A stretch of 64,000 nt of DNA from the NCBI GenBank assembly GCA_038087875.1, contig CM075988.1, positions 11,038,001 to 11,102,000 on the forward strand, in the 5' to 3' direction. The stretch's first letter is position 1; each line of letters begins with the position of its first letter. A program made the position numbers and the translations under genes. The notes beneath the pieces are model-generated. The model made no database searches, had not been told where the DNA came from, and worked only from the letters and a program-made list of their open reading frames with translations. Positions 5,727 through 59,169 of the stretch are shown here, in pieces. The stretch is from Malacoraja senta (lineage: Eukaryota).

Positions 5727-6078
5727 TTAAGACCAATGATGAATTAGCATCCCAGGAACATTCCCAGGAAAATGTTGAATAATTAATAGGCACATACTAT
5801 GCTCCATAGAGCTGACGTAACTTCTCAGCCAAACACTTAAGACTCATGGTAGAGTAAAAAGAAAAGTGAATTCTTTGAAATTTACCTGCAATTCTTTATT
5901 AGAAAATGTATTCAATAGCTTTGTTCTGTATATTTTCCAGATGTTGCCTGACCCATTGAAATACTCCAGCACCTTGTCTTTTTTTTTTAGTAAATCAGCA
6001 TCTGCATTTTCTTGTTACTTCAATAGCTTTAACATCTTATGAAAAGTTTAAAAAAAAAATATATGATATAATTTTTAC

Positions 6079-6203
6079 TACAAAGGACAAAGGACATGTA
6101 TTGTCACATACACCAATTGGTGCAGTGAAATTTGAGTTACCATGCAGCACACTGATAAGATAAACACAACACCATAGAATTCAACATTAAACATAAAAAC
6201 ATA
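6079..6203 (-). mobile_element. 5'-truncated copy of the 3552-4421 retroposon (duplicated at 10014-10138)
   Basis: AAAGGACAAAGGACA..TTGTCACATACACCAATTGGTG shared with the 3552 copy. Confidence 0.75.
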
Positions 6204-7933
6204 GCTAATCCATGCAGGAATCTTAAATAGATGCTTCACATTGTCATGTGACTGTTGGGACATAGTGTAATGTAAGTTGCATTAACTAATTGTAAATATG
6301 AAAAGGAACATTATGCAAGTATAGGGTTGGATTCGTGCCTCTTGTTGAAGCACATTCACTGAAAATGAACTTTAAATATGACGCTGGTAACAGTGTAATT
6401 TAGTTGAATTTTAAGATGGTGGCAGTAAATAGCACTAACTTAAATTCCAGTTTATTATACTTTTCCCTAGTACTTGAGGCAGCATTGAAAGTAAATGTTA
6501 ATGAAGACATAATGACCCAGATTATTCTGGGGAGTTGAGTTGTCGACATTTTATTCTTTTGGACCTTTCACATGGAACAAAACTAGGAGAACATTATGAT
6601 GGAATGTATTGGCCTATTAATTATTTTGTTCAACATTTTCTTGGGAATTTAGTGCTTTGATTCATCATTACCCTGACCAAAGCAGTTCATGTTTTTAATG
6701 TTGGTCTACAGTGAATTCAACATTGGACACATTTTTTCCTGCTATTAAAACCATTTTCAGAACATTGTCATAATAGAGAAGAAATAATGTAAGTAGTTTT
6801 TGCATGATACTGAGTTAAAAATGGTAAATCAGATGATTACTTTTAACCAAGTTTTTAGTGAAGCAGAAATTAATTGTGAACATAAAGAATAATAGTTTGC
6901 TTTCTGAGCATAACTCGCTTTCACTGAGCCCAAAACATGTTGAAGTGAAATGTTGGAAGGTCAGCTAAGTATTGCTTTTGGCTAAAAATCAATATCGATT
7001 GGAAAAAGTCTCTTTATTTACCGATTATTGATCCAATGAAAATTAGCTTCTGAGAAGTTGCTGTCTCTGTAAAACGTAGTTATCAATGGAATTTGCAGTT
7101 CAAATGAAGCTCCATTTGAAGCTCTAACGTAAAGAGTCTTCAATGATACCAGTACTTTATCTTCATTTAAAATAAAAAAGAATGAAAATTGCATTCCAAA
7201 GTGAGTTGTTTTGAGTTCCCAGCATCAAGCTGGAATCCCAACCCGAAAAGTCACCTATCCATTTTCTCCAGAGATGTTGCCTGACCCGCTACGTTACTGC
7301 TGTAGTTTGTATCTGTCTTTAGTACAAGCCAGCATCTGCACTTCCTTTTTAATACATTATATAATTTATTATATTCTTTTATTGGCTTTTTGGTTCAGTT
7401 GCTTCTTGTCAATATCCTGCTTTGCTGTCTAAATTCAATGAATGGACAGACCTATTATGATTAATTTAATTTTTCTATTTACAGATGTTGCCCATTTTGC
7501 CAAGTCTTTTCAGCCTTTTTCCATCTTTAACCAGGCTGTGACTTGGCATGTTCACAGACAAAATATGTAACCGATGTGAAAACTACCAATGTGGTTTCCC
7601 ACTCTCTATAAAATGCTTAGCATTGACTGCAATATGTAGGCTTAGGTTGAGCATTAGCCATATTTTGAATTGACACAGGATTGTGAACAGGACAGATTCC
7701 ATGACTTGTATGCATGCATCAACTTCAGAAACAGCACCATGCCTGTGAAGAATCTGGATAGTTTGATGGAGTCTTGTGAAATATCCAGGCTATTGCATAG
7801 TGGGTGCCATACATGGAAGAAAAAATATGTTCTTGCAGCAGTAAGGCAAGGCCGACCGTGAAAGCCAATTCATTGGCCTTGCTCATGCTGAAGTATCACA
7901 GATAGATATTTTAAAGCTTTAAGTTTGAATTAA

Positions 7934-8690: not shown

Positions 8691-9281
8691 AAACATAGTG
8701 GGGGAACATGAATCAAAGTCAAGAAACCTATTGAAGATTACTTTGTGAATCTTATTGCATGTTTACAGGATACTTTTGTTCTATGTATCTCTTCAGTGCT
8801 GATAGATGGTATGCATTAACATTCATGAGGGGTGTTTGTATTGATATTAGTATACAGTTCCATGGGCTAGACTGTAAGAAACCAGGCTGGTGATAAAACA
8901 TTTCCTCATTAGTGATGTTCTGCACTGTTAGGACCAAGCATTCATCTTCCAGTGGCATGAGGTTTGTGTTTCAGTTTGCAGAAGAGGAACATATATCAGA
9001 ATTCAGTTCTCAACACACCACTTACAAATTAATAGTTCACCTGGTCACCATATTCATATTGGGGAATGCAACTTGGAGCACACATGATGAGCCTTATGCT
9101 GTAAATAGTCTAAATTCTGTACTGCTATGAAGTTGTAGCTTTGGTGCAAAGCTAATCTGTCACTATCTGATGATCGTGCCACAAAATGAGGAAGATTGTT
9201 TTTCGTATCTGTGTACTCTGCTTAATCTTGTGTGGAGGATAGAGAGGTATATGCAAACTATGGATATCATTGTGCATTGTG

Positions 9282-12200
9282 TATCTTATTTACAAGTAGT
9301 CATTGCTTTCTCTTTCTTTCCCCTCCCCTTCCCAGCTCTCCCACAGCCCACTGTCTCTGCCTCTTACTTTCTTCTTCCCGTCCCCCCCCTCCCCCACATC
9401 AGCTCCATAGATGCTCCCTCACCTGCTGAGTTTCTCCAGCACCTGTCTACCTTCGATTTTACAGCATCTGTAGTTCCTTCTTAAACCTACAAACCTGTAC
9501 TTCTTTTGAATGAGGGAGGAAACCGGAGCACGCAGGGAAAACTCATGCAGTCATAGGGAGAACATACAAACTCCATACAGACGCCACTCATAGTCAGAAT
9601 CGAAATTGGGTTTCTGGCACTGTAAGGCAGCAACTCTACTGATGCGCCACCGTGCTGCCCCTTAAGACCAATGATGAATTAGCATCCCAGGAACATTCCC
9701 AGGAAAATGTTGAATAATTAATAGGCACATACTATGCTCCATAGAGCTGACGTAACTTCTCAGCCAAACACTTAAGACTCATGGTAGAGTAAAAAGAAAA
9801 GTGAATTCTTTGAAATTTACCTGCAATTCTTTATTAGAAAATGTATTCAATAGCTTTGTTCTGTATATTTTCCAGATGTTGCCTGACCCATTGAAATACT
9901 CCAGCACCTTGTCTTTTTTTTTTAGTAAATCAGCATCTGCATTTTCTTGTTACTTCAATAGCTTTAACATCTTATGAAAAGTTTAAAAAAAAAATATATG
10001 ATATAATTTTTACTACAAAGGACAAAGGACATGTATTGTCACATACACCAATTGGTGCAGTGAAATTTGAGTTACCATGCAGCACACTGATAAGATAAAC
10101 ACAACACCATAGAATTCAACATTAAACATAAAAACATAGCTAATCCATGCAGGAATCTTAAATAGATGCTTCACATTGTCATGTGACTGTTGGGACATAG
10201 TGTAATGTAAGTTGCATTAACTAATTGTAAATATGAAAAGGAACATTATGCAAGTATAGGGTTGGATTCGTGCCTCTTGTTGAAGCACATTCACTGAAAA
10301 TGAACTTTAAATATGACGCTGGTAACAGTGTAATTTAGTTGAATTTTAAGATGGTGGCAGTAAATAGCACTAACTTAAATTCCAGTTTATTATACTTTTC
10401 CCTAGTACTTGAGGCAGCATTGAAAGTAAATGTTAATGAAGACATAATGACCCAGATTATTCTGGGGAGTTGAGTTGTCGACATTTTATTCTTTTGGACC
10501 TTTCACATGGAACAAAACTAGGAGAACATTATGATGGAATGTATTGGCCTATTAATTATTTTGTTCAACATTTTCTTGGGAATTTAGTGCTTTGATTCAT
10601 CATTACCCTGACCAAAGCAGTTCATGTTTTTAATGTTGGTCTACAGTGAATTCAACATTGGACACATTTTTTCCTGCTATTAAAACCATTTTCAGAACAT
10701 TGTCATAATAGAGAAGAAATAATGTAAGTAGTTTTTGCATGATACTGAGTTAAAAATGGTAAATCAGATGATTACTTTTAACCAAGTTTTTAGTGAAGCA
10801 GAAATTAATTGTGAACATAAAGAATAATAGTTTGCTTTCTGAGCATAACTCGCTTTCACTGAGCCCAAAACATGTTGAAGTGAAATGTTGGAAGGTCAGC
10901 TAAGTATTGCTTTTGGCTAAAAATCAATATCGATTGGAAAAAGTCTCTTTATTTACCGATTATTGATCCAATGAAAATTAGCTTCTGAGAAGTTGCTGTC
11001 TCTGTAAAACGTAGTTATCAATGGAATTTGCAGTTCAAATGAAGCTCCATTTGAAGCTCTAACGTAAAGAGTCTTCAATGATACCAGTACTTTATCTTCA
11101 TTTAAAATAAAAAAGAATGAAAATTGCATTCCAAAGTGAGTTGTTTTGAGTTCCCAGCATCAAGCTGGAATCCCAACCCGAAAAGTCACCTATCCATTTT
11201 CTCCAGAGATGTTGCCTGACCCGCTACGTTACTGCTGTAGTTTGTATCTGTCTTTAGTACAAGCCAGCATCTGCACTTCCTTTTTAATACATTATATAAT
11301 TTATTATATTCTTTTATTGGCTTTTTGGTTCAGTTGCTTCTTGTCAATATCCTGCTTTGCTGTCTAAATTCAATGAATGGACAGACCTATTATGATTAAT
11401 TTAATTTTTCTATTTACAGATGTTGCCCATTTTGCCAAGTCTTTTCAGCCTTTTTCCATCTTTAACCAGGCTGTGACTTGGCATGTTCACAGACAAAATA
11501 TGTAACCGATGTGAAAACTACCAATGTGGTTTCCCACTCTCTATAAAATGCTTAGCATTGACTGCAATATGTAGGCTTAGGTTGAGCATTAGCCATATTT
11601 TGAATTGACACAGGATTGTGAACAGGACAGATTCCATGACTTGTATGCATGCATCAACTTCAGAAACAGCACCATGCCTGTGAAGAATCTGGATAGTTTG
11701 ATGGAGTCTTGTGAAATATCCAGGCTATTGCATAGTGGGTGCCATACATGGAAGAAAAAATATGTTCTTGCAGCAGTAAGGCAAGGCCGACCGTGAAAGC
11801 CAATTCATTGGCCTTGCTCATGCTGAAGTATCACAGATAGATATTTTAAAGCTTTAAGTTTGAATTAATCATAGAGTCTCAGTTATACAGCACAGAAATG
11901 GACCTATCAGCCCAACTTGTCCTTACCAACCAAGATGCCACACCTAAGCTGGTCCCATTTGCCTGTTCTTGCCCAATTACCTTATAAACCTTTCCTATCC
12001 AAGTACATGTCCAAATGTCTTAAATAGTATTTGCTTTAAATACCTCTATTGGCAGCTCGTTCCATATACCCATCACCCTCTGAATAAAAATCTTGCCATT
12101 CTCACCTTAAACTTATGTTTGCTTCCCCTTAATTCCCCTACTCTGGATAACAATCTATTCCCCTCATGATTTTATACACATCTATAAGATCACCCTTCAG

Positions 12201-21146: not shown

Positions 21147-21524
21147 AACATCACCCCATCCCCACCAAGAAATTGTTGAAATAATATCACCAGTCAACAC
21201 AGGGTGCACAAGATACTTGCTTTTTCCTCTTGTTTGATTGATGTTTTTCATTTTTATTTATGAATTTGTCTTTCAGCTCCTTCACAAAGAATTTCAGAAT
21301 TGAGAGGGTACAGTAATCAATGGTGGTAATATTGGTTTGTTATTCCAAATGTTTGTAGTAATGATCTAGAGTCATTAACCTAGGAAACAGTTGTGGAATT
21401 TAAAGGGAGACGGAAAGCATTAACTCAACATCTCAGGAGAACATGGATTGGTGAGTTTTGGGGCTGCGCCCTTCAGACTGATTGTAGCGGGGGGAGAAAG
21501 CTGGAAGAGAAGAGGGGCAGCACA

Positions 21525-22100
21525 AAGAGAGACAAAAAAAGTTGGAGTAACTCAACGGGACAGGCAGCAACTCTGGAGAGAAGGAATGGGTGATGTTTTG
21601 GATCGAGACCCCTCTTCAGACTATTTAACACTACAAATAAGCTCTAAACTACATGGACTTGGGGGCATTGATTTTGGCATGGACTTGGCAACACCAAACC
21701 TGGCAGGTAATGGGTTGATACAGGTTGGTGTGAGTTGGGGGGGGGGGGGTGTTAATGGGCTATGGTTGGGGAAAGGAGGCCAGAGATAAAGAGACAGGTG
21801 TGACACAAAAGGATTGAAGCATTGGGCATTGTGAAACTAGAGGAGGGAAGAAATAGCTATGAATCAGGTGGAGTACAGGGGTGGAAGGGAGGGAACAAAT
21901 AGGAGGTATATGGGAGAAAAAAGGAGTGGGGCAGGGTTATATAGTTATTTAAATTGGAGAATTCATTGTTCATAACGTTGGGTTAGGTACCAAAACAGAA
22001 TATAAAGTGGTATTCTTCCAATTTGCATGTGGCCTCACTCTGGCAATGGAGAAGGTCTGGGACAGAAAGGCCAGTACAGGAATGGTAAGAGGAGTTCAAT
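21525..22100 (-). mobile_element. Penelope-like element 3' fragment: GIY-YIG C-terminus, UTR and pLTR with hammerhead remnant
   Basis: Minus 22100-21945 reads NSSYHSCTGLSVPDLLHCQSEATCKLEEYHFIFCFGT*PNVMNNEFSN; downstream at 21622-21525 lies GTCTGAAGAGGGGTCTCGATCC-AAAACATC plus the family body. Confidence 0.8.
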
Positions 22101-22165
22101 TGTGGAATTTTATGGTAGTTTAGTTTATTACATGTATCCGAATGGAAAGACTACTCTATGTAATG

Positions 22166-22376
22166 TGGAGGAAGGATTTGCAAATGCTGGATTAAACCAA
22201 AGATAGACACCAAAAGCTGGAGTAACTCAGCAGAACAGGCAGCATCTCTGGAGAGAAGGAATGGGTGACATTTTAGGTCGGAGTCTGAAGAAGGGTCTTG
22301 ACCCAAAACATCATCCATTCCTTCTCTGCATAGATGCTGCCTGTCCCACTGAGTTACTCCAGCTTATTGTGTCTAT
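22166..22376. mobile_element. Palindromic Penelope-derived mini-element
   Basis: ~80 bp inverted arms around GTCTGAAGAAGGGTCT; perfect 15 bp TSD CTACTCTATGTAATG at 22151-22165 / 22377-22391. Confidence 0.88.
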
Positions 22377-22699
22377 CTACTCTATGTAATGGTACACATG
22401 CATTATGGATTGTTCTATAAACACATCCAATTCTTTCATGTGCTTTTGAGATAGAAATTGGCCAATCTTGCCAAACTCTATAAAAGAAACACTGCAGATG
22501 AATGCAAATGTTCTGGGTCTATTGGAATGGGAAGAGACTGGTGAACCATTCCATCCTACTACAACCCACCATTAGATCATTTCCTTTACTCCATATTCAG
22601 GGGGATACTTGCCCAACAAGGACATCTGAAAATTTAGCACTGTAAACATAATGCTACCCTCATAATGTGTCCTGATCAAAGGTGTGGAGAAGATAAACA

Positions 22700-22938
22700 C
22701 AAGATGGTGGTTTACCCCAAAGATAGACACAAAATGCTGGAGGGCAAAACTCTGCGGGTCTGGCAGCAAAACTGGAGAAAATGTGTAGGTGACTTTTCAC
22801 ATCGGAACCCTTCTTCAGATTGCTAGCCTCGAACATGAAACATCACCAATTCTTTTTCTACAGAGATGCTGCCTGTCCTGTTGAGTTACTTCAGTTTTTT
22901 GTGTGTATAAACCAGCATCTGCAGTTCCTTCCTACACA
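22700..22938. mobile_element. Palindromic Penelope-derived mini-element (older)
   Basis: Diverged inverted arms; degenerate direct repeat GGTGT(G/A)GAGAAG on both sides. Confidence 0.7.
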
Positions 22939-24104
22939 AGGGTGTAGAGAAGTTCACATGTCCTTAATCAGAATTTCAATCCCTTTGAGGTGACAGACCT
23001 TTTGCGATTTTGCTTTACTTTCAAGCATTTCCACAATCATTTACTGAGCCATCTAGCCATCCAAGTTCCACTGACTTTCCATATTTCCGAGTCATGGATG
23101 AATTTCCCTTTCCCTGCTCCTAAGATGGATGTACTTGTGCCTGCCCACGAGGAACTCTCAATGTTTTTGACTAGTTTTAAATATTTGTCCCTTTTGGAAT
23201 ATTCCCTTGTTTGTCATGCCTGTTTTTTGTGAGATCATTAGATGGCTTCTACACAAATCGCTGCCTTCCCTCGTATAAGTCTGGAACTCATTTGGGGGGA
23301 AAGCCCAGAGATTCCATTGCATGCACTGTGGGGAAGACTGTCATATTCTGCCAATAACAGAGTGCTTAATTCCATCTCACTCTGACCTCTAAATCTCACC
23401 CTTGCCAACATATTTGATCCAAACGTTCTCAAATGTTCCCAAAACTCCACGCAAGCTAAATTTTCTATCTTTCATGGGAGCAATAGCCCTAATATTTCAA
23501 TTAGATTTCAATTAGGTTGCCGATCACAAATTCACTTTGTCAGCCTTCCTCCTGCCTAAGTCAATACCAGATCGAAGATTAAATATAAGATGCTGTATAG
23601 CTTTGCAATTTAAATTTTTCATGAGGTGAACGGAAAAACCATTTCAAAGTCAAAGGCAGAAAAAAAGCACAAAGTAATTTATTACTAAGATAGCTTGTGA
23701 ACATGCAGGCCATCAGTAATAATTCAAGCTTGTTTCCATGAATTAAAATGCTCCCTTGTGGAGTAGAGAAATATTAATAGAGCAAATCCTCAGCTCCAAT
23801 GCCAACACTTCTATTACTTGTCCATGTTCCTCTGAGGAAACCACACCAATGTAGAGTAAAGCTGGTGACGGTCTCTTCTTCACTTCTGTGTCTGCTGCTG
23901 GTTGGTCCTGCATTATTCAGGTGGAATTCCATATTTGTCGAGTGGCGCAGTGGGAATTTCAATGGGCTTCCCAGCCTCCTCACAAGAAATCTGACTGCAA
24001 AGCCTCTATCAGTTCAGTAGGTCTGGCAATGTCATTAACATAAATGGGAACAAATTACTTTCCGAACAACTCTAAGGAGACCTCTTTAATTTTGATTGAA
24101 AGAT

Positions 24105-24915: not shown

Positions 24916-26038
24916 CTGTCATTCTTGCTTCATTCTTAAATTAAAATTACCTTTTACTGTTTTTCCAACAGCAAGTTTACATTTAATGAAAGGTTGTTCT
25001 ATTATCCGCTGTACCCAGTTCCTTATGAGAACACATCCATAATGCTCGGTGTATAGATTGACTGTCTTTCTGTGACATCACATCTGGAGTACTGTCATGC
25101 TGAGAACTCTAAGCCGACTAGAACATGTTTTAACTTAAATTCATAAAAGAAACGTACGAGCATCATTCATTTTCAGATGGAAGGCAAAAATGGTCACAAA
25201 TACTGCCTGGTTACCAATGGACCTAATAGGATTTGATGACTCAAATTGTTTCACCATGCAGAGAATAGTGATGACTTGAAATTAAGAAAGGAATGCCAAG
25301 GATTGGAATTGTGGTAAAACTGAGGGAATAAAACAAAGTAACTGCTTATTACTATTTTAGGAAAATCTGACATTCTTTGGCAAGAAATAGTTAAATACAT
25401 GAGTTGACACCATTAAAAGAGGATGTAATTAGCATCTAAGAGATATTAGGGGTTATGGATATTAATAGCACCGCTTGACTTTTTTGATGAGCCAAATGAC
25501 ATTTTCCGACTGCAGATTTAAATAAATTACAGAGTGCTGTGGTAGCTAGTTTCTATGAAAATGTCGAAGGCTTCATGTAACTGTGCACTGATGATCATGC
25601 TTTAGACAGCAGATTTAATTAGGCTATTCGGAAAGCAAAGATTGATTAAAGTATCACTTTATTCCGAAATTCCGAAAGAGCTATTTAGAAATTGTAATTC
25701 AACTCCTATTTATTTAAATATAAACAGAGTCTTATGTTGATGCATAAATGAGTCTTCATCTTGCACCTATGTAACTTTGCTGGTTCAAATTACCAGCACT
25801 CCTTGATGAATACAGTTGCAAGAATTAGTTGAATAGTTATTCATCAGACATGAGTGGAATTTACAATACCAACTATTTGTTTGAGTTATTTTAGCAGTTC
25901 TGCTCACTGCGTGCATCCTGATTGTTTATTTGACACAAGTTTGAAGAAATACACCTTTGGAAATCATTAAATACATTTCAGAAAGTTATACTTGATCTTT
26001 GGGTGTTTTTCTTTAACAGAGAAGTGCCAATGTCGATA

Positions 26039-26226
26039 GACACAAAAAGCTGGAGTAACTCAGCGGGTCAGATAGCATCTCTGGAAAAATTCTGGAGACC
26101 CGAAGAAGGGTCTTGACCCAAAACGGCACCTATTCCTTTTCTCCAGAGATGCTGTCTGACCTGCTGAGTTACTCCATCTTTTTGTGTCTATCTTCGGTTT
26201 AAAGCAGCATCTGCAGTTCCTTCCTA
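26039..26226. mobile_element. Palindromic Penelope-derived mini-element
   Basis: Inverted arms; CCGAAGAAGGGTCTTGACCCAAAACG core; 12 bp TSD CCAATGT(C/A)GATA at 26027-26038 / 26227-26238. Confidence 0.82.
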
Positions 26227-27047
26227 CCAATGTAGATAATTACTCAAGAGATGAAGGCAAATTGCAGCATTGTTGCTTGCGAAGGTAAATCTAAATCTGA
26301 TGTCAGTCAAAATGTGATACAGAACTCTTCAGACTACATGCACTTTGCTCACTTTCAAATATGTTTTACTTTAAGAATTCGAGTACAGCTCTCACCATGA
26401 GAATCAGACCAGGGGATACAACACATCAAACCCACACATTAAAATAGTTTGCTGGAGGCACCTCACTTTACATGGCATCCCAGCAGGAAGTGTTTGACTG
26501 AACTGACAGATTGGATATCCAAATGTGAGCATTTTCATTTCATACAAAAGTAAGGAGGTGATTTTCATTTGCTGCTTATATTGACATAAATTGATTACTG
26601 AGCCTGAAGAACATGAATACGTTGTCAGAAAATGGGAGGTTGGAGCTAGGGCATTCAAATCCTCCACTCAATTGTGCAATTCATGTCCCCTCTGAAGCTC
26701 TGCAACACATATCCCTACTGTATAGAAATTGCCAACCATAACCCAAATGATTGATTGTCATGTTCCTCCAAGTGCAAAATGTGATGCATGATTAGATATT
26801 TAAATTACCATCATGTTACACTTGCAGATGAAGCTGTTTGGTGTATATGCTCCATCAAGGTGCATATGTTTTGCCTTTCCAGTGTTGAAGGGACATAAGA
26901 GAGAGTTTGCGGCTGGTCACAAAGTGAAATATCTGGCGAGTTCAATCTGTCACATCTGTTTCTGGCAACTAAGGTGACGGGGGAACGATTATATCGGAAT
27001 ATGAGGGTGGTGGGTGTACGGAACGAGCTGCCGGCGGAGGTTGTTGA

Positions 27048-28304
27048 CAATAGACAATAGGTGCAGGAGTCGGCCATTCGGCCCTTCGAGCCAGCCATTC
27101 AATGTGATCATGGCTGATCATCCCCAATCAGTACCCCGTTCCTGCCTTCTCCCCATATCCCCTGACTCCGCTATTTTTAACAGCCCTATCTAGCTCTCTC
27201 TTGAAAGCATCCAGAGAACCTGCCTCCACCACCCTCTGAGACAGAGAATTCCACAGACTCACCACTCTCTGTGAGAAAAAGTGTTTCCTCATCTCCGTTC
27301 TAAATGGCTTACTCCTTATTCTTAAACTGTGGCCCCTGGTTCTGGACTCCCCCAACATCGGGAATGTCCCTCCTCAAATTAGGGGACCAAAACTGCACAC
27401 AATACTCCAGGTGTGGTCTCACTAGGGCTCTGTACAACTGCAGAAGGACCTCTTTGCTCCTGTATTCAATTCCTCTTGTTATAAAGGCCAACATGCCATT
27501 TGCTTTCCTCACTGCCTTCTGCACCTGCATGCTTACTTTCATAGACTGATGTACAAGGACCCCCAGATCCCGTTGTACTTCCCCTTTTCCCACTTGACGC
27601 CATTTAAATAGTAATCGGCCTTCCTGTTTTGCTACCAAAGTGGATAACCTCACATTTATCCGCATTAAACTTCATCTGCCATGCATCTGCCCACTCCCCC
27701 AACCTGTCCAAGTCACCCTGCATTCTCATAATATCCTCCTCACAGTTCACACTGCCACCCAGCATTGTGTCATCTGCAAATTTGCTGATGTTACTTGTAT
27801 CCCTTCATCCAAATCATTAATGTATATATACCACACCGAGCCTTGCGGTACCCCACTAGTCACTGCCTGCTTTTCTGAAAGGGACCCGTTAATCCCTATT
27901 CTTTATTACATGTCTGCCAACCACTTCTCTATCCATGTCAGCACTCTACCCCCAATACCATGTGCCCTAATTTTGCCCACTAATCTCCTATGTGGGACCT
28001 TATCAAATGCTTTCTGAAAGTCCAGGTACACTACATCCACTGGTTCTCCATTGTCCATTATCCTAGTTACATCTTCAAAAAATTCCAGAAGATTAGTCAA
28101 GCATGATTTTCCCTTTGTAAATCCATGCTGACTCGGATCGATCCTGTTACTGCTATCCAAATGTTTGGCTATCTCATCTTTTATAATTGACTCCAGCATC
28201 TTCCCCACCACCGATGTCAGGCTAACTGGTCTATAATTCCCTGTTTTCTCTCTCCCGCCTTTCTTAAAAAGTGGGATAACATTAGCTTAACAAAAGTGGG
28301 ACAA
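27048..28304 (-). mobile_element. CR1 LINE, 5' truncated and internally deleted, nested in a plus-strand CR1 3' fragment
   Basis: RT peptides [67 protein letters not shown]-repeat tail; host halves at 26975-27047 and 28305-28478. Confidence 0.92.
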
Positions 28305-28698
28305 TGTTGAGGCATGTACTATTGCAATATTGAAGAAGCAATTTGATAGGTACATGGATAGGACAGGTTTAGAGGGATTTGGGCTAAACGTGGGCAAGTG
28401 GGACTAGTGTAGATGGGACATGTTGGTCGGTGTGGGCATGTTGGGCTAAAGGGCCTGTTTCCACACTGAATGACTCTTTCACTCTAACTTCACAAATCTT
28501 GTTTTTGACAACTTACTAAATCCCTTATTAGTCTCAGTTCTGAGTAAACCCTACAGTTACCCTACCTTACTCCCCACACAAACTTTAGCTGGGAGTTTTC
28601 TGTGTTCTTTAGGGTAGAAATACATGTTGAATTGAACCTGGGTGTTGCCAAATCTGTTTTGATTTTGTACTCTGGAGGGAGCAATGTTGTAACGTGCA

Positions 28699-29485
28699 TC
28701 AAGCCTTACCCCACTACTCAAACCTCATGTCAAAAACCTTGGCGTGATATTTGACTCAGCACTGAAATTTGACAAACAAGTCAATGCCGTGGTAAAACCT
28801 AGCTTCTTTCAGCTTCGGACGATAGCTAAAATAAAACAATTCCTCCACTTTGATGACCTCGAAAAGATCATCCACACATTTATCTCCTCCCGCCTAGATT
28901 ACTGCAACTCCCTTTACACTGGCATCAGCCAATCTTCCCTGTCCCGCCTGCAACTGGTCCAAAACACCGCAGCGAGACTCCTGACGGGCACCCGAAAAAG
29001 GGACCACATCACCCCGATCCTGGCCTCTCCCCACTGGCTCCCTGTGCGGTTCCGTATACATTTCAAGATCCTCCTCTATGTCTACAAAGCCCTCAATGGG
29101 CTTGCCCCCACCTACATTAAACGTCTTCTCACCCACCACTCCACCTCCAGGTCCCTCAGATCGGCCGACTTGGGGTTGCTGAATATCCCGCGGTCTAGGC
29201 ATAAGCTCAGGGGCGACCGCGCCTTTGCGGTTGCAGCTCCTAGACTGTGGAACAGCATCCCCCTTCCCATCAGAACTGCCCCCTCCATCGACTCCTTTAA
29301 GTCAAGACTAAAAACGTATCCCAAGCCTTTCTTGACATCCACTGAGCGAGGGCTATATGTATATATATATATATATGTAGTTTGTTTGTTTATATTATTC
29401 TTATAACAAATGTAAAGCACTTTGGCCAACGAGAGTTGTTTTTTAAATGTGCTATATAAATAAATGTGACTTGACTTGATTTGAC
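28699..29485 (+). mobile_element. L2 LINE 3' fragment (ORF2 C-terminus)
   Basis: KNLGVIFDS..SRLDYCNSL..LQLVQNTAARLL..HITPIL..HWLPV..RAFAVAAPRLWNS; AATAAA plus (GACTT)n tail. Confidence 0.93.
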
Positions 29486-35537: not shown

Positions 35538-35737
35538 NNNNNNNNNNNNNNNNNNNNNNNNNNNNNNNNNNNNNNNNNNNNNNNNNNNNNNNNNNNNNNN
35601 NNNNNNNNNNNNNNNNNNNNNNNNNNNNNNNNNNNNNNNNNNNNNNNNNNNNNNNNNNNNNNNNNNNNNNNNNNNNNNNNNNNNNNNNNNNNNNNNNNNN
35701 NNNNNNNNNNNNNNNNNNNNNNNNNNNNNNNNNNNNN
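35538..35737. other. Assembly gap (200 N)
   Basis: Run of exactly 200 N. Confidence 1.
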
Positions 35738-37448: not shown

Positions 37449-37722
37449 TGCCCCTGTCCCACTTAGGAAACCTGAACGGAAACCTCTGGAGACTTTGCGC
37501 CCCACCCAAGGTTTCCGTGCGGTTCCTGGAGGTTGTTGTCAGCCTCCCTAATGGTCGAAAGTGGTTTCCGCTTCGTCTATGTTCTGCCGATTATTTCAAA
37601 AAATTCAAAACCGGCCGCGACTAAAATAGGTTGCCGTTTTAAAAATCAGTAATTTTTTGGTTGAAGCCGGTTGCGATGCTAGTTGAAGGTGGTTGCCGGA
37701 GGTTGCAGGTAGTGGAAGGTAA
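37449..37722. mobile_element. Harbinger-type MITE, one terminus only
   Basis: TTA followed by TGCCCCTGTCCCACTTAGG, the same terminal motif as 31533 and 53745; no partner TIR found. Confidence 0.6.
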
Positions 37723-37775
37723 GACCTCCCTGGTGGAATAAACTGGGTGAAAAAAAGGTCTGAGGAGATTCAGCA

Positions 37776-40730
<2,955 letters not shown>

Positions 40731-42344
40731 CTTGAGTTTGTTTCAAAAGAACTAAACATGAATCTATAAACCTAGCAAGAAATGGTTGCAGCAGTGCATG
40801 TATGTATGTGGTATTGATTGTAAGTGGATGAACTAGGTGATTGAATGTTACCAGACCCCACTGTCTAGTGTGTCTACTAGCGTGATACAGAGTTGTTATT
40901 GTACAGGGGAGGGCTCCATCCTTCCTGCACATCACCATTGACTAAGATGGATGAGACTTGTCCAGGTGCTGCCTAAGGAGCCGCCAAAGCATTTGTTTCC
41001 TAGTTCACAATTCGGACATGTTTTGTAGAGATTGAACAAATGAAGTGTGAGTTAATATTCTAATCCTGCTGCCCAGATTCCAGTTATTTTCTGACCTCTT
41101 CATTTGTGGTGCAGTCTGCTCAGAGTAGAGGATGTAAACTGTAGCACCAGACCCATCCAGCATGGTTATAAAATAAATAGCCTATTTAACCAATTCCTGG
41201 TGATCTTTTGTATTGATTGAATATGTTGAAGTATTTAACTGAAATACATAAACACATATATTCTTAACGTTAGGGGGGTGTGGGGGGTGTTAAACATTTT
41301 CACGACTTGTTTGCTTATATTGAGCACAGGACAAATTCAGTTAAAGTTTTTCTTTACACTGTGGAACTAAACATCTCCACCAGAGCAGCCCGTTGCATGG
41401 ATCAGGCACTGTGCCTCATGAGCAGAGAGAGAGGTCTAGGTCTGGCTGCAATCAAACTGATGAGTCAGCGAGAGGGCATGTGGGCAATTTATCGAGCTGT
41501 CTGGTAAACAAAGAATGAATGTGTGGGCGATAAGGGATGAAATGAGGCTGGAGCTTAAATTGGAAAGTTCCTGTCTCTTAAGGCATCCCCTGCAATTAGA
41601 CGGTTTCGAAGGCGGTGTAATAGTTGATGATTCGGGTGTGAATATAGAATAAACACAAGAAAAGATCCGGGCAAAGTAAGAGAAAGATGACGCATCTTGA
41701 GACTCGAACACAAAAGCAGTCCAAAGTCATCACGTTGTACCCGAGTGCTCTGCCAAGTACATTGGTGAGACTGTCACAGCACAGGCAACAGAGCTAATAG
41801 ACAAAGCATCAATTAGAATTACCATGAGGGTGTTTTAGACTGGCGAAAGCCCTGAGCATAATGCTATTCTTGGTTTCATCCATTATATTAGAACAGGGGC
41901 TAATGTTCAGAAGTTTTACTCAATAAATGGAGCACTTTTTCATTTCCTTTTATCTGGAGCTGTGTGGCAGCTGCACTGCCCACAACACTATTGTGCTGCA
42001 CTACAACTAATTTCTGAGGAGTACAGTTAAGTTAGGCAGAACTTTTTTAATGCGGGGTAAAATGTTTAGGGAGGTTTGATACCGAATGGGTCACATCAAA
42101 TTTAAATGTACTTTGCCAATAGCAATGCAGCACTGTTTAAATGTAGCGTTGATCTTTCACTATCTAATAAACAAGTTTTGTCGATTTACTGACAGAGGTG
42201 GTTGAAAAATGTAACTTTATAACGAACTTTGGATAGTCGTTCACGAAAAACAGTTTCTTTTTGTCAGAAGTTTAATCCATTCCGACTGTCAACCATGCGT
42301 AAATTGATGCTTTTCGTTACATCCCTCCCCTTTCTTATCCTCTT

Positions 42345-44465: not shown

Positions 44466-46495
44466 AAGTGTGATAACAATGCTTGACGTACACACAAGTC
44501 ATGGGGTGTCTGATGAGATCCTTGTGCTTGGTCAGATGACGGCCAGTTTGAATGAAGGACTTGTTGAAAATCTCTGTTTGTGAATGAGACCACTTTCTTT
44601 ATGGGGGTCACAATTTACAGAGGATAGGGATTGATGCAGTGAAGTATTAGACGCAACACCTAAAATACAACCGTTGTCTGAAGGTGAAGATGAACTTGCG
44701 CAAATAAAACATGCTTGAAAGAAAGTCAATGCTTGTAGTTGGAGGAAGCTATCAAAGTGACGGGGTCCTTTATTATATATTGACCATTTTTTTGAGAAGG
44801 GAAGGGTAATTAAGTTAATTAAATGAAAGTTAGTGTTTTCACTTACTGTCTATTAATTAAAGCACTTAATGAATGATACCCAATCTTGTTTCACCAATCA
44901 TTGCAGTGAATCAAACTCAAATCATGAGCGGTGCCACACAGTTAGAAATCTGGGCTATGATAACATAGGTTGATATTGTGCGGAACCTTGAATAAATGGT
45001 GTGCAAACTTTATAACTAACCTGCAATTGCAGTGTTTGGACACCTTGGGTGTGATCTCAATTTAGAATGTATCAAAAATTAAAATTATTAAAATTAATTG
45101 TTCAACGCTGATTCTTATGTCAAACATCTTTTTCATCTGACAATATTAATATATTTGGTATTCCTTCCTCACTAATCTAGTTAGCTTATTCTTTTTAAAA
45201 ATGCTTTGAAACAATGTCGGACTTAAGGTCCAGACAAGGGGCAACATTACATAAAAATGCATTGCATATTAAAAACATCATAAACTACATATAAAATGTT
45301 AGTATATCACTTATAAAAGCATCATAAATTATATATTTAAAAAAACAACACAATACATGAATTAAATTCCAGAATAAAAGAATGATCAATGTCCTACAAC
45401 GAGACAACGATACCAGTATACCAGTGTCCCCACAGCTGGGACTAGTAGCATGTAGTTCTAAACCTTATGTTTGACAAGGCCACAATAATCACATTTTTAG
45501 AGTTATTTATCCTGCAAATTAATTTATACATATGATTTCTTAGGATAGCTTCTAAAGTACAGACTCCTGCAGCCACAAACATGTTGCTAGCACCACACCA
45601 TCTAGGTTTCCTTAGCAGTGTTCTCATGGCATCATTATATGACACCTTTAGTCTCTGCAAACTTGTCTTTCCGTAGTTCGACCACAGGTGCGCAGTATAG
45701 AGTGGTGTGCAGTATGCTCTAAATAGCCACATCTTCACCACATCTGTACACGCACCAAACTTACGCAAGAGAGTATTCGCCTGTACATACGGCAATCATC
45801 GTTGCCTATAAATATCCTCATCATCTGTCATTTGTTCTGTAATAAAATGCCCTAGATATTTTACCTTATTACAGACACTAAGATTATTGTCAGACAATTT
45901 AAAATCAGGAAATTTTAGACATTTATCCTCTTTGCTTCTACAGATCATAACAGCACTCTTACAAGCATTATATTTAATATCATGTTTCACACCATACACA
46001 GAACATATAGTAAGGAGTTGCTGGAGACCAGCGCTAGATGGACTAAATACCACAAGATCATCTGCATACATAATATGGTTCACTAAAGTATTACCTATCA
46101 TGCACCCAGTATTACAGTCATTCAATTGTTTGGACAGATCATCAATATAAAGATTAAAAAGGACTGGGGACAAAATTCCCCCTTGTCTAACACCATTGCT
46201 AACCCCAAATGGGGCTATTGCCCCATTTTATTTGCATAGTCTGGTGGGCATACCAGTAGGCCAGAATTCTCACAATGTATTTAGGCACCCCTCTTTGACT
46301 CATTTTAACAAACAGCTTTCTGTGATTAACATGGTCAAAGGCTTTGGAAGCATCAATAAAGCACATAAGGATTGAAGAGTTTTTGCCTCTATATTTGTTT
46401 ACAATCTCCTTTAGGGCATATATGCATAAGTCAGTGCCATGTTTAGCTTTAAAACCAAATTGGTTATCTGTGGAGTTAACAAACTCATTTATTCT

Positions 46496-46545
46496 GAGGA
46501 AGGGTCTGAAGAAGGGTTTCGGCCTGAAACGTTGCCTATTTCCTT
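46496..46545 (+). ncRNA. Minimal type I hammerhead ribozyme motif
   Basis: Helix I GAGGAA-GGGU / GCCU-AU-UUCCUU, core CUGAAGA(A) at 46506-46513, helix II GGGU-UUCG-GCCU, GAAA at 46526-46529, palindromic AACGUU helix III, predicted cut after 46533. Confidence 0.65.
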
Positions 46546-46599
46546 TGCTCCATAGATGCTGCTGCACCCGCTGAGTTTCTCCAGCATTTTTGTGTACCT
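46496..46599 (+). mobile_element. 104 bp Penelope-derived insertion
   Basis: Perfect 11 bp TSD TCATTTATTCT (46485-46495 / 46600-46610); removing it restores the host RT frame VLERVLRDRINEFVNSTDNQFGFK. Confidence 0.92.
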
Positions 46600-46954
46600 T
46601 CATTTATTCTATCCCGCAGAACTCTTTCTAAAACTTGTTTCCAATTTTGACCATTCTCTGGAAAAAATAGTTTACTTCTGAATTCCACGTGGATTCACTT
46701 ATGTGCTGCTTATTTTGTGAGATCCACTCACAATTCCATACATCTGCTCCACACCTGTCTTATCATGATGTCACAATCAGAGTTGGCCTTCATCTAATTT
46801 TGTGAAGAGCCCAAGTCTATTGAATTCTTCCTGAGAGCTTTGGCTCTGATATCTTTCTCAGGAATTTGGTTTGCACCTTCTCCAGTACTTTGAGGTTATA
46901 ATTCCTTTGAAAACAGAACTGATCACAATAGTCTATAGAGTGACATAATTCAGG

Positions 46955-47163
46955 TAGTTTCTACGTTCTACCTGTGACCATGTGTGTTTTCTGCAGGTGC
47001 TCCGGTTTCCTCCCACACTCCAAAGACGTGCAGGTTTGGAGATTAATTGGCTTCAGTAAAAAAAAAGTAAATTGTCCTCAGTGTGTGGGATTGGCCGAGT
47101 GTACGAGGTGATCGCTGGTCAGCATGGACTCAGTGGGCTGAAGGTCTGCGCTATATCTCTGAA
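46955..47163 (+). mobile_element. V-SINE, 5' truncated
   Basis: GGTGCTCCGGTTTCCTCCCACACTCCAAAGACG V domain and CR1-type end. Confidence 0.82.
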
Positions 47164-48197
47164 GTCCCATGAGCTTGCTGGCAACATGTACTTGTATATT
47201 AAATAAGCCCACGCTTCTTTCCCCATCTACAAAGAGTTAAGTTTAAAAACTAAGTTTCTTCCCTAATGCTACAAACAGGGGTTAGTCATTGCACTAGGAG
47301 CCGAGCTATTCTCGGTTGTCTTTTGAAAAACCAAGTTTATCTTTGCTTATTACGATAGTTTCTTGCAGCCTCGTGACCTAGAGCCTCATGGACTATAGGT
47401 TTCAAGGCTTCATGATTAACTTGTTTTTCTAAGTGAGCCACTTGCTTGCTTGCTTACTCAGCTTGGGTGCTATTAGCTGACAAGTCCATTTTGGATGAAA
47501 ATTGTGTTTTAATGGGGCGGTTGGCAGTAGTGGACCAGGCACGTTGAAACTCAGTTTCCTCCTCCTCTGCATTTCCCTTTGCCTCTGCGACAATTTTTTT
47601 TCTTCTGCTGCTCTGTAATGCTGTGGTATCCACACCAGTTTTTTCAGCCAGATCTCTTCCGAATGCCGCAGAATTTAAAACAGAGAAAAATTAAAGGAAC
47701 ACGGAGATTTCTAGATAAGCTGGAAGATGCATATTTGTCACAGACAGATATGTTTGTGAAAATGTAGGATTTGGAAATAAATTATTTTGTTTTTCTTTTC
47801 AATATTTGTCCCAAATATTCCAAAGGACTTGGTTATCTCTGTCAAGTGTAATTGATTTTCATAGCTTAACATTTAAGATAAAGAAAACAAACTACTTTTT
47901 CACTCCAGTTCACTGTCTCAAAATGTCACCGTTATGCTTGTTTTCAGTACAGTGAGAAAAAGCAATGGCCTCCAGGTGTGTACCAGTGACTTGAGTAATC
48001 TTATGTTAGTTTTTCTGAGCTTGGAGCTTGGAACTGATTTGGTCTTTCTTGAGTTTATTAAAATTATTTATTTAATGCAGCAAATGGAATGAGTCTCACT
48101 ATTTAAATGCAAGTCTATTTTAGGGTCCTACCAGTTCCGGTCAATAGTTGAACATGGGTTTCGGCATAAAGAATGCAGCTCTAGCCCATGAGCAAAA

Positions 48198-48336
48198 ATG
48201 TGTAGGAAGGAACTGCAGATGCTGGTTTTTTCAGACTGCTGTGTCTGAAGAAGGGTCTTGACCCAAGACGCCACCCATTCCTCTTCAGAGATGCTGCCTG
48301 TCCCGCTGAGTTCCTCCAGCATTTTGTGTCTATCTT
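48198..48336. mobile_element. Penelope-derived insertion with inverted 5' segment
   Basis: TGTAGGAAGGAACTGCAGATGCTGG (inverted end), then GTCTGAAGAAGGGTCTTGACCCAAGACG plus the family body. Confidence 0.8.
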
Positions 48337-48514
48337 CTGCATGAAGTTGTGGAAACACCATCTTATAAATGAAAAGAAACAATTATGCCATATTACTGTA
48401 TTAAAATCACATTTTTAAATCGGGCTGATAAATAAGGTATTTATTAAAAGCAGGTAAAAAAAAAAACCAAGGACCATTGTTACTAATGAGTAGAAAGATC
48501 ATTTTTGTTTTCAT

Positions 48515-55632: not shown

Positions 55633-55795
55633 GATGTAGTAACATCCTAACTTAGTGCAAAAGACTCTGGGCAAAAAGTTCACATGTGTAGACATTGGAT
55701 ACTGACAGAATCAGATCTGGTGGTCTAGTATCAAGTAATTTCTCACAATGCAGAGCTGAAGTTTGTATCCAAAAACTGTTTGCCATCACAAGGTA

Positions 55796-57602
55796 CTGTT
55801 TACATCCAAGGGTCTTGAGGGAGATAGCGGTGGGGATTGTGGATGCATTGGTGATAATTTTCCAAAACTCCCTGGAGGCAGGAACGGTCCCAGTGGATTG
55901 GAAAATGGCCAATGTAACACCTATATTTAAAAAAGGAAGTAAACAGAAGGCGGGTAACTATAGACCGGTTAGTCTAACATCGGTGGTGGGTAAAATGTTA
56001 GAGACAATTATTAAAGAAACACTAACGGGGCACTTGGATAAACATGACTTCATCGGACAGAACCAGCATGGTTTTGTGAAGGGGAAGTCCTGTTTAACGA
56101 ATCTGCTCGAATTCTTTGAGGAAGTAACAACCCGGGTGGATAAAGGGGAACCGGTGGATGTGGTATACTTGGACTTCCAAAAGGCTTTTGACAAGGTGCC
56201 ACATAAGAGACTATTGCTAAAAATAAAAAATTATGGGATTGGGGGTAATATATTAGCATGGGTAGAGGATTGGCTAACAAATAGGAAGCAGAGAGTGGGG
56301 ATAAATGGTTCATACTCGGGATGGCAACCGGTAACTAGCGGGGTTCCGCAAGGGTCGGTGCTGGGACCCCAGTTGTTCACAATTTATATAAATGATTTGG
56401 AGGAGGGAACCAAGTGTAATATATCAAAATTTGCGGACGATACAAAAATGGGAGGAAAAGTAGGGGATGAGGAGGATAGGAAGAGTCTGCAAAAGGATAT
56501 AGATAAGCTAGGTGAGTGGGCAACAACTTGGCAGATGAAATTTAATACTAATAAATGTGAAGTCATTCACTTTGGGAAAAAAAATGATAGGGCAAGTTAT
56601 TTTCTAAATGAGGTGGAGCTGCGTTGTAATGCAACGCAAAGGGATCTAGGGGTAGTAGTACATGAATCACTAAAAGTTAGTATGCAGGTGCAGCAAGCAA
56701 TCAGGAAGGCCAATGGAGTTTTGGCCTTTATTGCTAGGGGGATTGAGTATAAAAACACGGAGGTCTTGCTGCAGCTGTACACAGTATTAGTGAGACCACA
56801 TTTGGAATACTGTGTACAGTTCTGGGGTCCATACTTAAGAAAGGATGTACTGGCCCTGGAGGCAGTGCAGCGAAGGTTTACAAGATTAATTCCTGCAATG
56901 AGGGGATTGACATATGAGGAAAGGTTAAGTAGGCTGGAACTCTACTCTTTGGAGTTTAGAAGAATGAGAGGCGATCTCATTGAAACATATAAGATCGTGA
57001 GGGGCCTTGATCGGGTGGATGCACCGAGGATGTTCCCAATGATCGGGGAAACTAGAACTAGGGGACATAGTTGTAGAATAAGAGGGGGCTCTTTTAAAAC
57101 TGAGATGAGGAAGAACTTCTTCACCCAGAGGGTGGTTAATTTATGGAATTCACTGCCCCAGGGAGCAGTGGAAGCAGAAACATTAAATATATTTAAGTCT
57201 AAAATAGATGTTTTTTTTAGCTGCCAAGGGGATAAGGGGCTATGGGGAGAGGGCAGGGATATGGACCTAGGTATGGTTAGTATAGTAAGACCTGAGTGAT
57301 CTCCTGGACAAGTGTCGATCGCCTGGATTGGGGTCGGAGAGGAATTTCCCGGATTTTTTTCCCGAATTGGACCTGGGTTTTTATCCGTTTTTTTGCCTCC
57401 CCCAGGAGATCACGCGGTTCTTGGGGTGGAGAGGGGTGATAGCGATATAAAGGGGAGGGTAGTGTCTTGTGTTCTGTGTCTTGTGTCTACTGTTTGTGGG
57501 TAAGGGTGTCTGTTTAGTGTTCAGCCATGAGCGAATGGCGGTGCAGGCTCGATGGGCCTGGTGGTCTACTCTCGCACCTACTTTCTATGTTTCTATGTTT
57601 CT
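55796..57602 (+). mobile_element. Young CR1 LINE, 5' truncated; uninterrupted RT domain of ORF2
   Basis: ~470 open codons NYRPVSLTS..DFQKAFD..SGVPQGSVLGP..KFADD..RTRGH; (TTTCTATG)n tail; AAGGTA TSD at 55790-55795 / 57603-57608; probable +1 T frameshift near 57210. Confidence 0.96.
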
Positions 57603-58770: not shown

Positions 58771-58849
58771 CAAAACTTCAGTGTGACTTTTTTTCCAGAG
58801 CAGGCTCTGCACTGAAACTGAGAACCAGCCAAGGGTAGGTTTCTTTTAA

Positions 58850-59020
58850 CATCTCTGGAGAAAAAACGATGAGTGACCTTTCGGGTCGATGTCGGAAGAA
58901 GGGTCCAGACCCAAAATGTCACCCATTCTTTTTCTCCAGAGATGCTGCCTGACCTGTTGAGTTACTCCAGCACTTTGTGCCTATCTTTTGTATAAACCAG
59001 CATATGCAGTTCTTAGTTTC
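58850..59020. mobile_element. Partially palindromic Penelope-derived insertion
   Basis: Perfect 14 bp TSD TAGGTTTCTTTTAA (58836-58849 / 59021-59034); inverted 5' arm plus decayed hammerhead core. Confidence 0.88.
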
Positions 59021-59169
59021 TAGGTTTCTTTTAATTTGGTTATTGGCTGGTTCCCATATTGGTTACCAACCCTTGCTGAGAAACTAGCTGAGTGTAGAAA
59101 TTGATTATTTAAAGCTCCAAACATTGATATAATCAATGAGTGATATCCTCTGCAAATTTGGCAGCAATT

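What the first reader, a model, noticed from the sequence alone, without database searches (positions are those of the whole stretch)
46485..46610. 104 bp mobile insertion carrying a core-intact minimal hammerhead ribozyme, inside a LINE RT ORF
Seen: a perfect 11 bp TSD, and excision restores the host RT reading frame, so this short unit was itself inserted. It begins with a complete type I hammerhead layout: helix I, CUGAAGA plus an extra A, a UUCG-capped helix II, GAAA, and a self-complementary AACGUU helix III. Established: Penelope-like elements carry minimal hammerheads in their pLTRs, and a palindromic helix III is associated with dimeric cleavage. Inference: this is the least decayed copy in the window and may self-cleave when transcribed on the + strand. 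Caveats: the 10.1-11.1 pair is G-U rather than G-C and the cleavage triplet is GUU, both of which should lower activity.
Basis: partly seen in the sequence, partly recalled or inferred. Interest (0 to 1): 0.75.

Follow-up and report, generated by a model that had tools for sequence, protein, structure and literature searches.

The report
Penelope retroelement end-piece with minimal hammerhead
This is a real, fairly young 104-base insertion carrying a complete minimal hammerhead-ribozyme motif, but it is one truncated end-piece of a very abundant Penelope-like jumping-gene family, a known arrangement, and it is probably inert where it sits.

Summary
There is a perfect 11-bp target-site duplication, the exact empty site is seen in reads from other LINE copies, and this is the only complete minimal hammerhead in the window (3 hits in 200 shuffles). 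The 104 bp is not an element in its own right. It is a 5'-truncated, tail-less copy of a very abundant repeat (21 fragments in the window; 45,000-48,500 contigs laid per DNA run). The family shows Penelope-like (PLE) pLTR hallmarks: an optional ~33-nt tail, inverted 5' partners and 8-16-bp duplications. No PLE ORF was found, so membership rests on anatomy. Corrections: the G·U at 10.1-11.1 is private CpG decay (C in 81-87% of relatives); GUU is the subfamily norm; most of helix I comes from a 12-nt junction duplication; productive helix III is 4-bp ACGU. The ribozyme fold is predicted at 2-4%, no intact partner lies nearby, and family RNA reads show no end pile-up. Published PLE minimal hammerheads do not cleave as monomers. 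Verdict: known kind, probably inert here; the scan noted the same kind in shark genomes before. Two leads remain: 5' ends cluster at a splice-acceptor-like site, and core CpGs decay towards ribozyme-killing alleles.

The parts
46485..46495 (.). Left target-site duplication; its last bases TCT also match the start of the element's TCTGAAG (5' microhomology)
   Evidence: (tandem 12-mer starts at 46493)
46493..46516 (+). 12-nt tandem duplication TCTGAGGAAGGG / TCTGAAGAAGGG at the 5' junction; 46496-46503 is non-native and supplies most of the apparent helix I 5' strand
   Evidence: native upstream table 7; 46498 reads A in 90-94% of covering depth, 34-49 contigs per DNA run
46502..46505 (+). Helix I 5' strand in this copy (GGGU, pairs with 46534-46537); only G46504 and U46505 are native
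46506..46513 (+). Core C3-A9 (CUGAAGA) plus the extra A between 9 and 10.1 typical of PLE min-HHRs
   Evidence: sequence; PMC4209133
46514..46525 (+). Helix II GGGU-UUCG-GCCU; U46525 (11.1) is a private C->T CpG decay
   Evidence: C in 81-87% of covering depth or reads in 4 of 4 runs
46526..46533 (+). G12-A14, palindromic A15.1-C-G-U16.1 (dimer helix III), U17; scissile bond 46533/46534
46534..46599 (+). Helix I 3' strand and pLTR body, ending at the family's tail-less 3' end; second private CpG decay at 46546
   Evidence: (tables 3, 7)
46600..46610 (.). Right target-site duplication; first 2 nt (TC) also match the element's native continuation TCGATTTT
45409..46636 (-). Host: 5'-truncated, broken non-LTR retrotransposon RT fragment (relatives carry APE endonuclease + RT; clade not determined)
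   Evidence: RVT_1 E 7.5e-18 and 1.9e-9; 154 homologs; tblastn; depth falls to single copy past about 46636

Best explanation
A Penelope-like element RT/endonuclease made a staggered cut in an AT-rich site of a dead LINE and reverse-transcribed an uncleaved pLTR RNA. It began at the family's inner (tail-less) initiation site, at 46599, and stopped about 95 nt later, just 5' of the hammerhead core, where most copies of this family stop. The 5' end was joined through TCT microhomology with a 12-nt slippage, and repair left an 11-bp duplication. The copy has since lost two CpGs. The hammerhead is a passenger inherited from the pLTR. In the parent element it probably cleaves only as a dimer or with protein help; here it is alone, weakened at 10.1-11.1, mostly misfolded and most likely silent. 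Shown: boundaries, TSD, empty site, family size, family anatomy, private mutations. Inferred: PLE enzyme as mobiliser, TPRT, slippage, inactivity.
For: Optional 3' tail in 9 of 19 copies. Many contigs leave the family at 46598-46600 into unrelated AT-rich flanks while others continue natively (X1 152+152+193 vs 291; X4 251+274+325 vs 372; table 7). This matches the 30-40-bp optional tail between two RT start sites (PMC11167929, PMC8557442, PMC3846280). Three inverted composites have 12-16-bp TSDs, and 7 of 16 units score 8 or more for a flanking repeat; A. vaga PLEs show 8-10-bp TSDs (PMC3846280). The extra base after A9, G10.1-C11.1 and palindromic 15.2-16.2 are the published min-HHR traits. 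The copy keeps sequence 5' of the scissile bond, and 11 of 11 copies with a 5' core end within 0-6 native nt of the same point, so templates were uncut; in Anolis Poseidon, uncleaved RNA is the main substrate and no RNA-seq ends map to the cut site. Helix I/II pair probabilities are 2-4% and the MFE buries GAAAC. No end pile-up in 6,740 RNA reads.
Against: No PLE RT or GIY-YIG sequence was linked to this family: a six-frame motif scan found none, no genome is held, and pattern scans of viral, metagenome and prokaryotic collections gave 0 loci in 5 of 5 scans. No ORF starts at stem II as in PAc. Nearest-neighbour folding also disfavours the hammerhead fold for read-majority versions (helix II at most 10%), so it cannot separate this copy from live ones; the duplication actually raises helix I above native. 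The RNA run is poly(A), short-read, 6% sampled, from another organism (C), and cannot see 5'-OH ends well. The TSD search had no chance control.
Confidence: 0.8

Rival explanations
1. This particular copy is an active ribozyme in vivo. The junction duplication gave it a 4-bp helix I, and it cleaves host + strand read-through RNA, dimerising in trans with abundant family transcripts through ACGU.
For: Complete core. Helix I probability is higher than in the native context (3-4% vs about 0). Family RNA is plentiful in a relative's transcriptome. PLE hammerheads cleave weakly as dimers or with protein.
Against: G·U at the conserved 10.1-11.1 pair. A competing GUUUC/GAAAC helix buries the core, and the double-hammerhead dimer lies 29.6 kcal/mol above the dimer MFE (core tertiary energy not modelled). 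No end pile-ups. 8 of 9 Xenopus dimer elements tested did not cleave (bioRxiv 10.64898/2026.07.22.740005). No evidence that this locus is transcribed.
Confidence: 0.1
2. The ~96-nt unit is a self-standing non-autonomous element (retrozyme- or SINE-like) amplified from short masters or RNA circles by PLE enzymes, rather than by repeated truncation of full-length PLEs.
For: Very uniform 5' ends and 3' ends. Head-to-tail joints 46598/46600->46504 occur in 3 of 3 DNA runs (1-6 contigs per joint row). Copy number is enormous. PLE-derived retrozymes were reported in one chondrichthyan.
Against: Unit ends are not permuted at the scissile bond, as circle-derived copies would often be. Head-to-tail joints are rare against 45,000+ contigs. 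Copies with 40-140 nt of native upstream sequence exist (5305-5465; second unit near 21480). Core is minimal, not canonical. Inverted composites are typical of PLE insertion. This rival is compatible with PLE origin and differs only in the template.
Confidence: 0.2
3. The hammerhead-like layout is chance sequence in an unrelated SINE.
For: No Rfam hit. No covariation above shuffles in the window's copies (70.8% paired vs 69.3%, 160 of 500 shuffles as high). MFE z-score +0.70.
Against: Descriptor hit rate 3 in 200 shuffled windows. All published min-HHR traits are present. Pairing is 70.8% vs 6-43% in slid controls. U-A and U·G both occur at the top of helix II (46522 A in 17-29%), and U-A/U·G at 2.1-1.1. 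PLE anatomy.
Confidence: 0.03

Closest known systems
Minimal hammerheads (min-HHR) in pLTRs of metazoan Penelope-like elements (Cervera and De la Pena 2014, PMC4209133; Lunse et al. 2017, seen only as cited in PMC6765202)
   Same: Type I layout, no helix III loop, palindromic 15.2-16.2, extra base between 9 and 10.1, G10.1-C11.1 in the family, short helix I, mostly dispersed single truncated copies.
   Different: Helix II is 4 bp rather than the 7-8 bp of schistosome motifs; native helix I has 2 contiguous pairs; this copy has G·U at 10.1-11.1 and a duplication-made helix I. Cartilaginous fish were not among the genomes named in the parts I read.
Poseidon of Anolis carolinensis (PAc; Frangieh et al. 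2024, PMC11167929)
   Same: Two alternative 3' ends defining an optional tail downstream of the hammerhead, AT-rich targets, inserts that keep the uncut ribozyme, no RNA-seq ends at the cut site.
   Different: PAc's ORF starts at stem II; no ATG lies there in this family. Clade (Poseidon vs Neptune) not determined.
Non-LTR retrozymes (Cervera and De la Pena 2020, PMC7229834; Li et al. 2026 bioRxiv 10.64898/2026.07.22.740005)
   Same: Short, non-coding, type I hammerhead, PLE-related, monomer copies dispersed.
   Different: Retrozymes are tandem arrays of 2 or more hammerhead units that give circular RNAs; this is a single 104-bp copy with a minimal core, and head-to-tail dimers are rare.
Drosophila virilis Penelope pLTR with 5'-UTR intron (PMC2377424; PMC4209133)
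   Same: A 3'-splice-site-like signal (78-89% pyrimidine tract + CAG) abuts helix I, as the Penelope intron end does.
   Different: Splicing here is inferred from sequence only; no donor site or spliced read was identified.

Membership tests
PLE minimal hammerhead (min-HHR) | CUGANGA ... GAAA + UH core | tested here: met
PLE minimal hammerhead (min-HHR) | Extra nucleotide between 9 and 10.1 | tested here: met
   A46513
PLE minimal hammerhead (min-HHR) | G10.1-C11.1 pair | tested here: inconclusive
   Met by the family (C in 81-87%; GC in 11 of 18 scored window copies); not met by this copy (G·U)
PLE minimal hammerhead (min-HHR) | Palindromic 15.1-16.1 allowing a dimer helix III | tested here: met
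   ACGU
PLE minimal hammerhead (min-HHR) | Compensatory changes across the family | tested here: inconclusive
   No excess over shuffles in 19 decayed copies; wobble/WC exchange at 46517-46522 in reads
PLE minimal hammerhead (min-HHR) | Self-cleavage as dimer or with protein | not testable with these tools
   Needs an assay; indirect RNA evidence negative (table 6)
EN+ Penelope-like elements | ORF with telomerase-like RT and GIY-YIG endonuclease flanked by this repeat | tested here: inconclusive
   None in the window; no genome held; collections gave 0 loci
EN+ Penelope-like elements | Optional 30-40-bp 3' tail | tested here: met
   9 of 19 copies with tail; bimodal ends in reads
EN+ Penelope-like elements | Inverted 5'-truncated pLTR next to the direct one | tested here: met
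   Three composites near 22165-22378, 22690-22938, 26035-26226; absent in this copy
EN+ Penelope-like elements | Variable TSD, AT-rich target, no poly(A) tail | tested here: met
   11 bp here; 8-16 bp in 6 other units of 16 examined
Non-LTR retrozyme | Tandem array of at least two hammerhead units | tested here: not met
   Single unit; nearest same-strand relative 1.6 kb away with a broken core; rare tandem joints elsewhere
Non-LTR retrozyme | Unit-length circular RNA | not testable with these tools
   Only a poly(A) library was available
Rfam hammerhead families | Score at or above gathering threshold | tested here: not met

The most novel reading that the evidence does not exclude
In this lineage the hammerhead works against its own copying. 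The RT needs uncut RNA, so ribozyme-dead or splice-remodelled templates out-replicate live ones (or hosts purge live copies). Two patterns fit. First, 5' ends cluster at a polypyrimidine-CAG acceptor abutting helix I, so splicing could strip the helix I strand and switch the ribozyme off. Second, the two core CpGs are lost more often (5 of 34 kept vs 15 of 36 at non-core CpGs) and mostly to the killing G->A allele (CA:TG 18:6 vs 4:12). With a family probably numbering in the hundreds of thousands, this would give a population-scale test of what PLE hammerheads are for.
Probability: 0.12. Interest if true: 0.6.

Novelty: new member of a known kind. Interest (0 to 1): 0.2.

Why it matters
As a single locus it matters little: one of very many short PLE-derived insertions, in a dead LINE. 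It is a clean illustration of the PLE insertion mechanism (inner RT start, uncut ribozyme, microhomology/slippage 5' join, TSD) and a possible lineage marker, since organisms B and C seem to lack the host LINE at this site. The family as a whole may be useful: the role of PLE hammerheads is still open, and a very large natural copy set allows tests of selection for or against cleavage.

Tried and rejected
Rfam scans found no hammerhead; the ctRNA hit at E 0.22 was rejected as chance. No genome is held, so no genome-wide alignment or search for an autonomous partner was possible. Pattern scans gave 0 loci in 5 of 5. A regex scan of six frames for GIY-YIG/PLE-RT motifs gave 4 isolated weak hits, none convincing; a full Pfam scan of all six frames was not achieved. 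Covariation: one search used a misregistered structure string (my error, disregarded); the corrected one search shows no excess over shuffles. No TSD was found for the host LINE. A splice origin of the 12-nt duplication was considered and rejected: a donor at AAGG|GT would give an 11-nt repeat with two G, not the observed 12-nt repeat with three. The second CUGAGGA box at 46494-46500 has no helix I partner by inspection. The sigma-70 scan was uninformative. Depth ratios suggest about 3-12 x 10^5 copies, but the tool warns that summed contig depth is no copy number. Lunse et al. 2017 is not held. A supplement search of PMC11167929 found nothing; its Figs S1-S2 were not seen and bear on tail coordinates; bioRxiv supplements (which chondrichthyan, which families) are closed. 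Searches for a description of this family in cartilaginous fish listed no such paper; Repbase and Dfam were not searchable, so it may well be catalogued there.

Full report
Observation. The 11-mer TCATTTATTCT lies at 46485-46495 and 46600-46610, cannot be extended, and occurs nowhere else in the window. The 104 bp between interrupt a minus-strand RT fragment (RVT_1 hits). Removing insert plus one TSD restores ...VLERVLRDRINEFVNSTDNQFGF, which matches intact relatives (154 homologs; first 25 motif-bearing ones printed). Reads confirm the pre-insertion state: a joint skipping exactly 115 nt is in 1 contig of run X2 and 3 reads (1 start) of RNA run X23; these come from other copies of the multi-copy LINE. 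The filled right junction is present without differences in run X1 at single-copy depth (record 8). The LINE is itself 5'-truncated at about 46636 and has further breaks, so only about 8 codons are restored beyond the insert and the RT stays dead. In organisms B and C the unique flank matches only from 46635 outward while their contigs run on in other sequence (records 16, 24), which suggests the LINE, and so the insert, is younger than that split (flank differences 8 in 259 and 6 plus 2 gaps in 266); this is inference.

The hammerhead. C3=46506 to A9=46512, extra A 46513, helix II 46514-17/46522-25 with UUCG, G12-A14 46526-28, A15.1-C-G-U16.1 46529-32, U17 46533. A descriptor I wrote after seeing the motif finds this one hit in the window and 3 in 200 shuffles. 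Rfam has no match, which is unsurprising for loop-less minimal forms (inference). Among 19 aligned copies (of 21 nhmmer hits at E<0.001; two near-identical duplicates left out) it is the only one with full core and both helices.

The family. Family fragments cover about 3% of the window. Laying four runs on 46150-46900 at 85% likeness gave 48,534, 45,072 and 47,097 contigs and 6,740 RNA reads, with depth overwhelmingly on the insert. From recalled repeat types (CR1-like LINEs, an HE1-like SINE near 46990) the host is probably a cartilaginous fish; this was not tested. Relatives extend beyond both ends of the 104 bp: upstream ...CCCACATCA|G, downstream GATTTTCCAGCATCTGCAGTTCCTTCTTAA (table 7). 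The 3' end is bimodal: 9 of 19 window copies carry a ~33-nt tail and 10 do not, and many contigs leave the family at 46598-46600 into unrelated AT-rich sequence. Three copies have an inverted 5' partner and the composites are bounded by 12-16-bp TSDs; 7 of 16 units score 8 or more for a flanking repeat, without a chance control. Optional 30-40-bp tails, inverted 5'-truncated partners and 8-10-bp TSDs are published PLE traits (PMC8557442 and PMC3846280, passages; PMC8969392, passage). In Anolis Poseidon the tail is the stretch between two internal RT start sites (PMC11167929, main text read). No PLE ORF could be tied to the family, so membership rests on anatomy.

U46525 is C in 81-87% of covering depth or reads in 4 of 4 runs, and T46546 likewise (83-90%); both are CpG decays private to this copy. 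G10.1-C11.1 is one of the traits listed as conserved in min-HHRs (PMC4209133, parts 1-2 of 4 read). GUU is the norm among close relatives (GUC 1-8% in DNA, 33% in RNA reads). Bases 46496-46503 are not native: with the TSD's last TCT they form the first copy of a tandem TCTGA(G/A)GAAGGG. The same duplication seems to recur, with A at 46498 in 34-49 contigs per DNA run. It supplies a 4-bp helix I with two G·U pairs, where the native context gives 2 contiguous pairs. A14-U17 pairing in the six-base palindrome would be non-productive (inference from hammerhead numbering).

Is it active? ViennaRNA gives helix I and II pair probabilities of 2-4%; the MFE pairs GUUUC with GAAAC and buries the core. 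The double-hammerhead dimer lies 29.6 kcal/mol above the dimer MFE, but read-majority versions are 25-29 kcal/mol above too, so this does not single out the copy and ignores tertiary energy. The nearest same-strand relative is 1.6 kb away with a broken core. Family RNA reads lie on both strands about equally and show no place where many molecules begin or end (table 6); the library is poly(A), short-read, 6% sampled and from organism C, so this is weak. In print: a schistosome min-HHR monomer showed no cleavage and dimers little; PAc's ribozyme needed protein, was dispensable for insertion and left no RNA-seq ends; 8 of 9 Xenopus dimers did not cleave (bioRxiv 10.64898/2026.07.22.740005, parts 1-3 of 5 read). 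Dimer cleavage in Lunse et al. is known to me only through PMC6765202 (passages) and recall.

Mechanism. Most likely a PLE enzyme cut an AT-rich site, primed at the inner start site (2-nt TC match at the 3' junction), copied an uncut pLTR RNA for about 95 nt, and joined the 5' end through TCT microhomology with a 12-nt slip. All 11 window copies that keep the 5' core stop within 0-6 native nt upstream of it (two start indices were off by one, which does not change the range), not at the scissile bond; at most 1 other copy (50390-) may start there. Shown: ends, TSDs, mutations. Inferred: enzyme, order of steps, inactivity.

Leads. Native upstream sequence is a 78-89% pyrimidine tract ending in CAG directly before U2.1, like a 3' splice site; the D. 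virilis Penelope intron also ends at helix I (PMC2377424 passages). Core CpGs are kept in 5 of 34 cells against 15 of 36 at two non-core CpGs (Fisher p=0.017) and decay CA:TG 18:6 against 4:12 (p=0.003). This is post hoc, on few and non-independent copies, and flanking-base effects or subfamily structure could explain it. Covariation in the window copies does not exceed shuffles.

Known or new. It works like, and by anatomy belongs with, PLE pLTR minimal hammerheads described in 2014. It fails the tandem-array test for retrozymes (PMC7229834 passages). Four searches listed no paper on this family in cartilaginous fish, but repeat databases were not searchable. The scan noted the same kind three times in shark genomes (unchecked notes); look-ups by sequence and place returned nothing. 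Verdict: real, new member of a known kind, probably inert; interest 0.2.

Noticed in passing
window 46199-46603 (-): The antisense of the insert is stop-free and, from an ATG near 46603, reads in frame into the LINE RT remnant (134 aa ORF); probably chance, as the RT breaks downstream.
   Followed up: no
window family copies (alignment A1): Core CpGs are lost more often and mostly as G->A on the ribozyme strand, unlike two non-core CpGs.
   Followed up: partly
window 5425-5465 and 21440-21530 (-): Native sequence upstream of the hammerhead is a polypyrimidine tract ending in CAG, and copies' 5' ends cluster there; the copy at 5442 has lost the whole core by a deletion starting right after this CAG.
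   Followed up: partly
window 22151-22391, 22677-22952, 26027-26238, 58836-59034: Inverted pLTR composites with 12-16-bp target duplications; in two of them the tail is on one arm only.
   Followed up: yes
window about 5300-7400 and 9250-11300: A segment of several kb occurs twice about 3.9 kb apart (family copies 5442/9379 and 7216/11151 with identical flanks; ORFs 9131 and 13066 share their start), either tandem duplication or assembly artefact.
   Followed up: no
window 46504-46600 in runs X1, X2, X4: Rare head-to-tail joints of ~96-nt units, and frequent short joints 46545->46504/46513 of unknown kind (tables 5, 5c).
   Followed up: no
window about 46980-47160: A SINE-like repeat resembling the elasmobranch HE1 SINE (name recalled, not tested).
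   Followed up: no
window 55692-57299 (+), 27906-28286 (-), 28693-29406 (+): Long RT-like ORF pieces of other LINEs (535 aa CR1-like ORF; labels recalled; tblastn hits to the first two).
   Followed up: no
window 37640-40940; 35538-35737: A ~3-kb (GA/CT)-rich simple repeat and a 200-N assembly gap.
   Followed up: no
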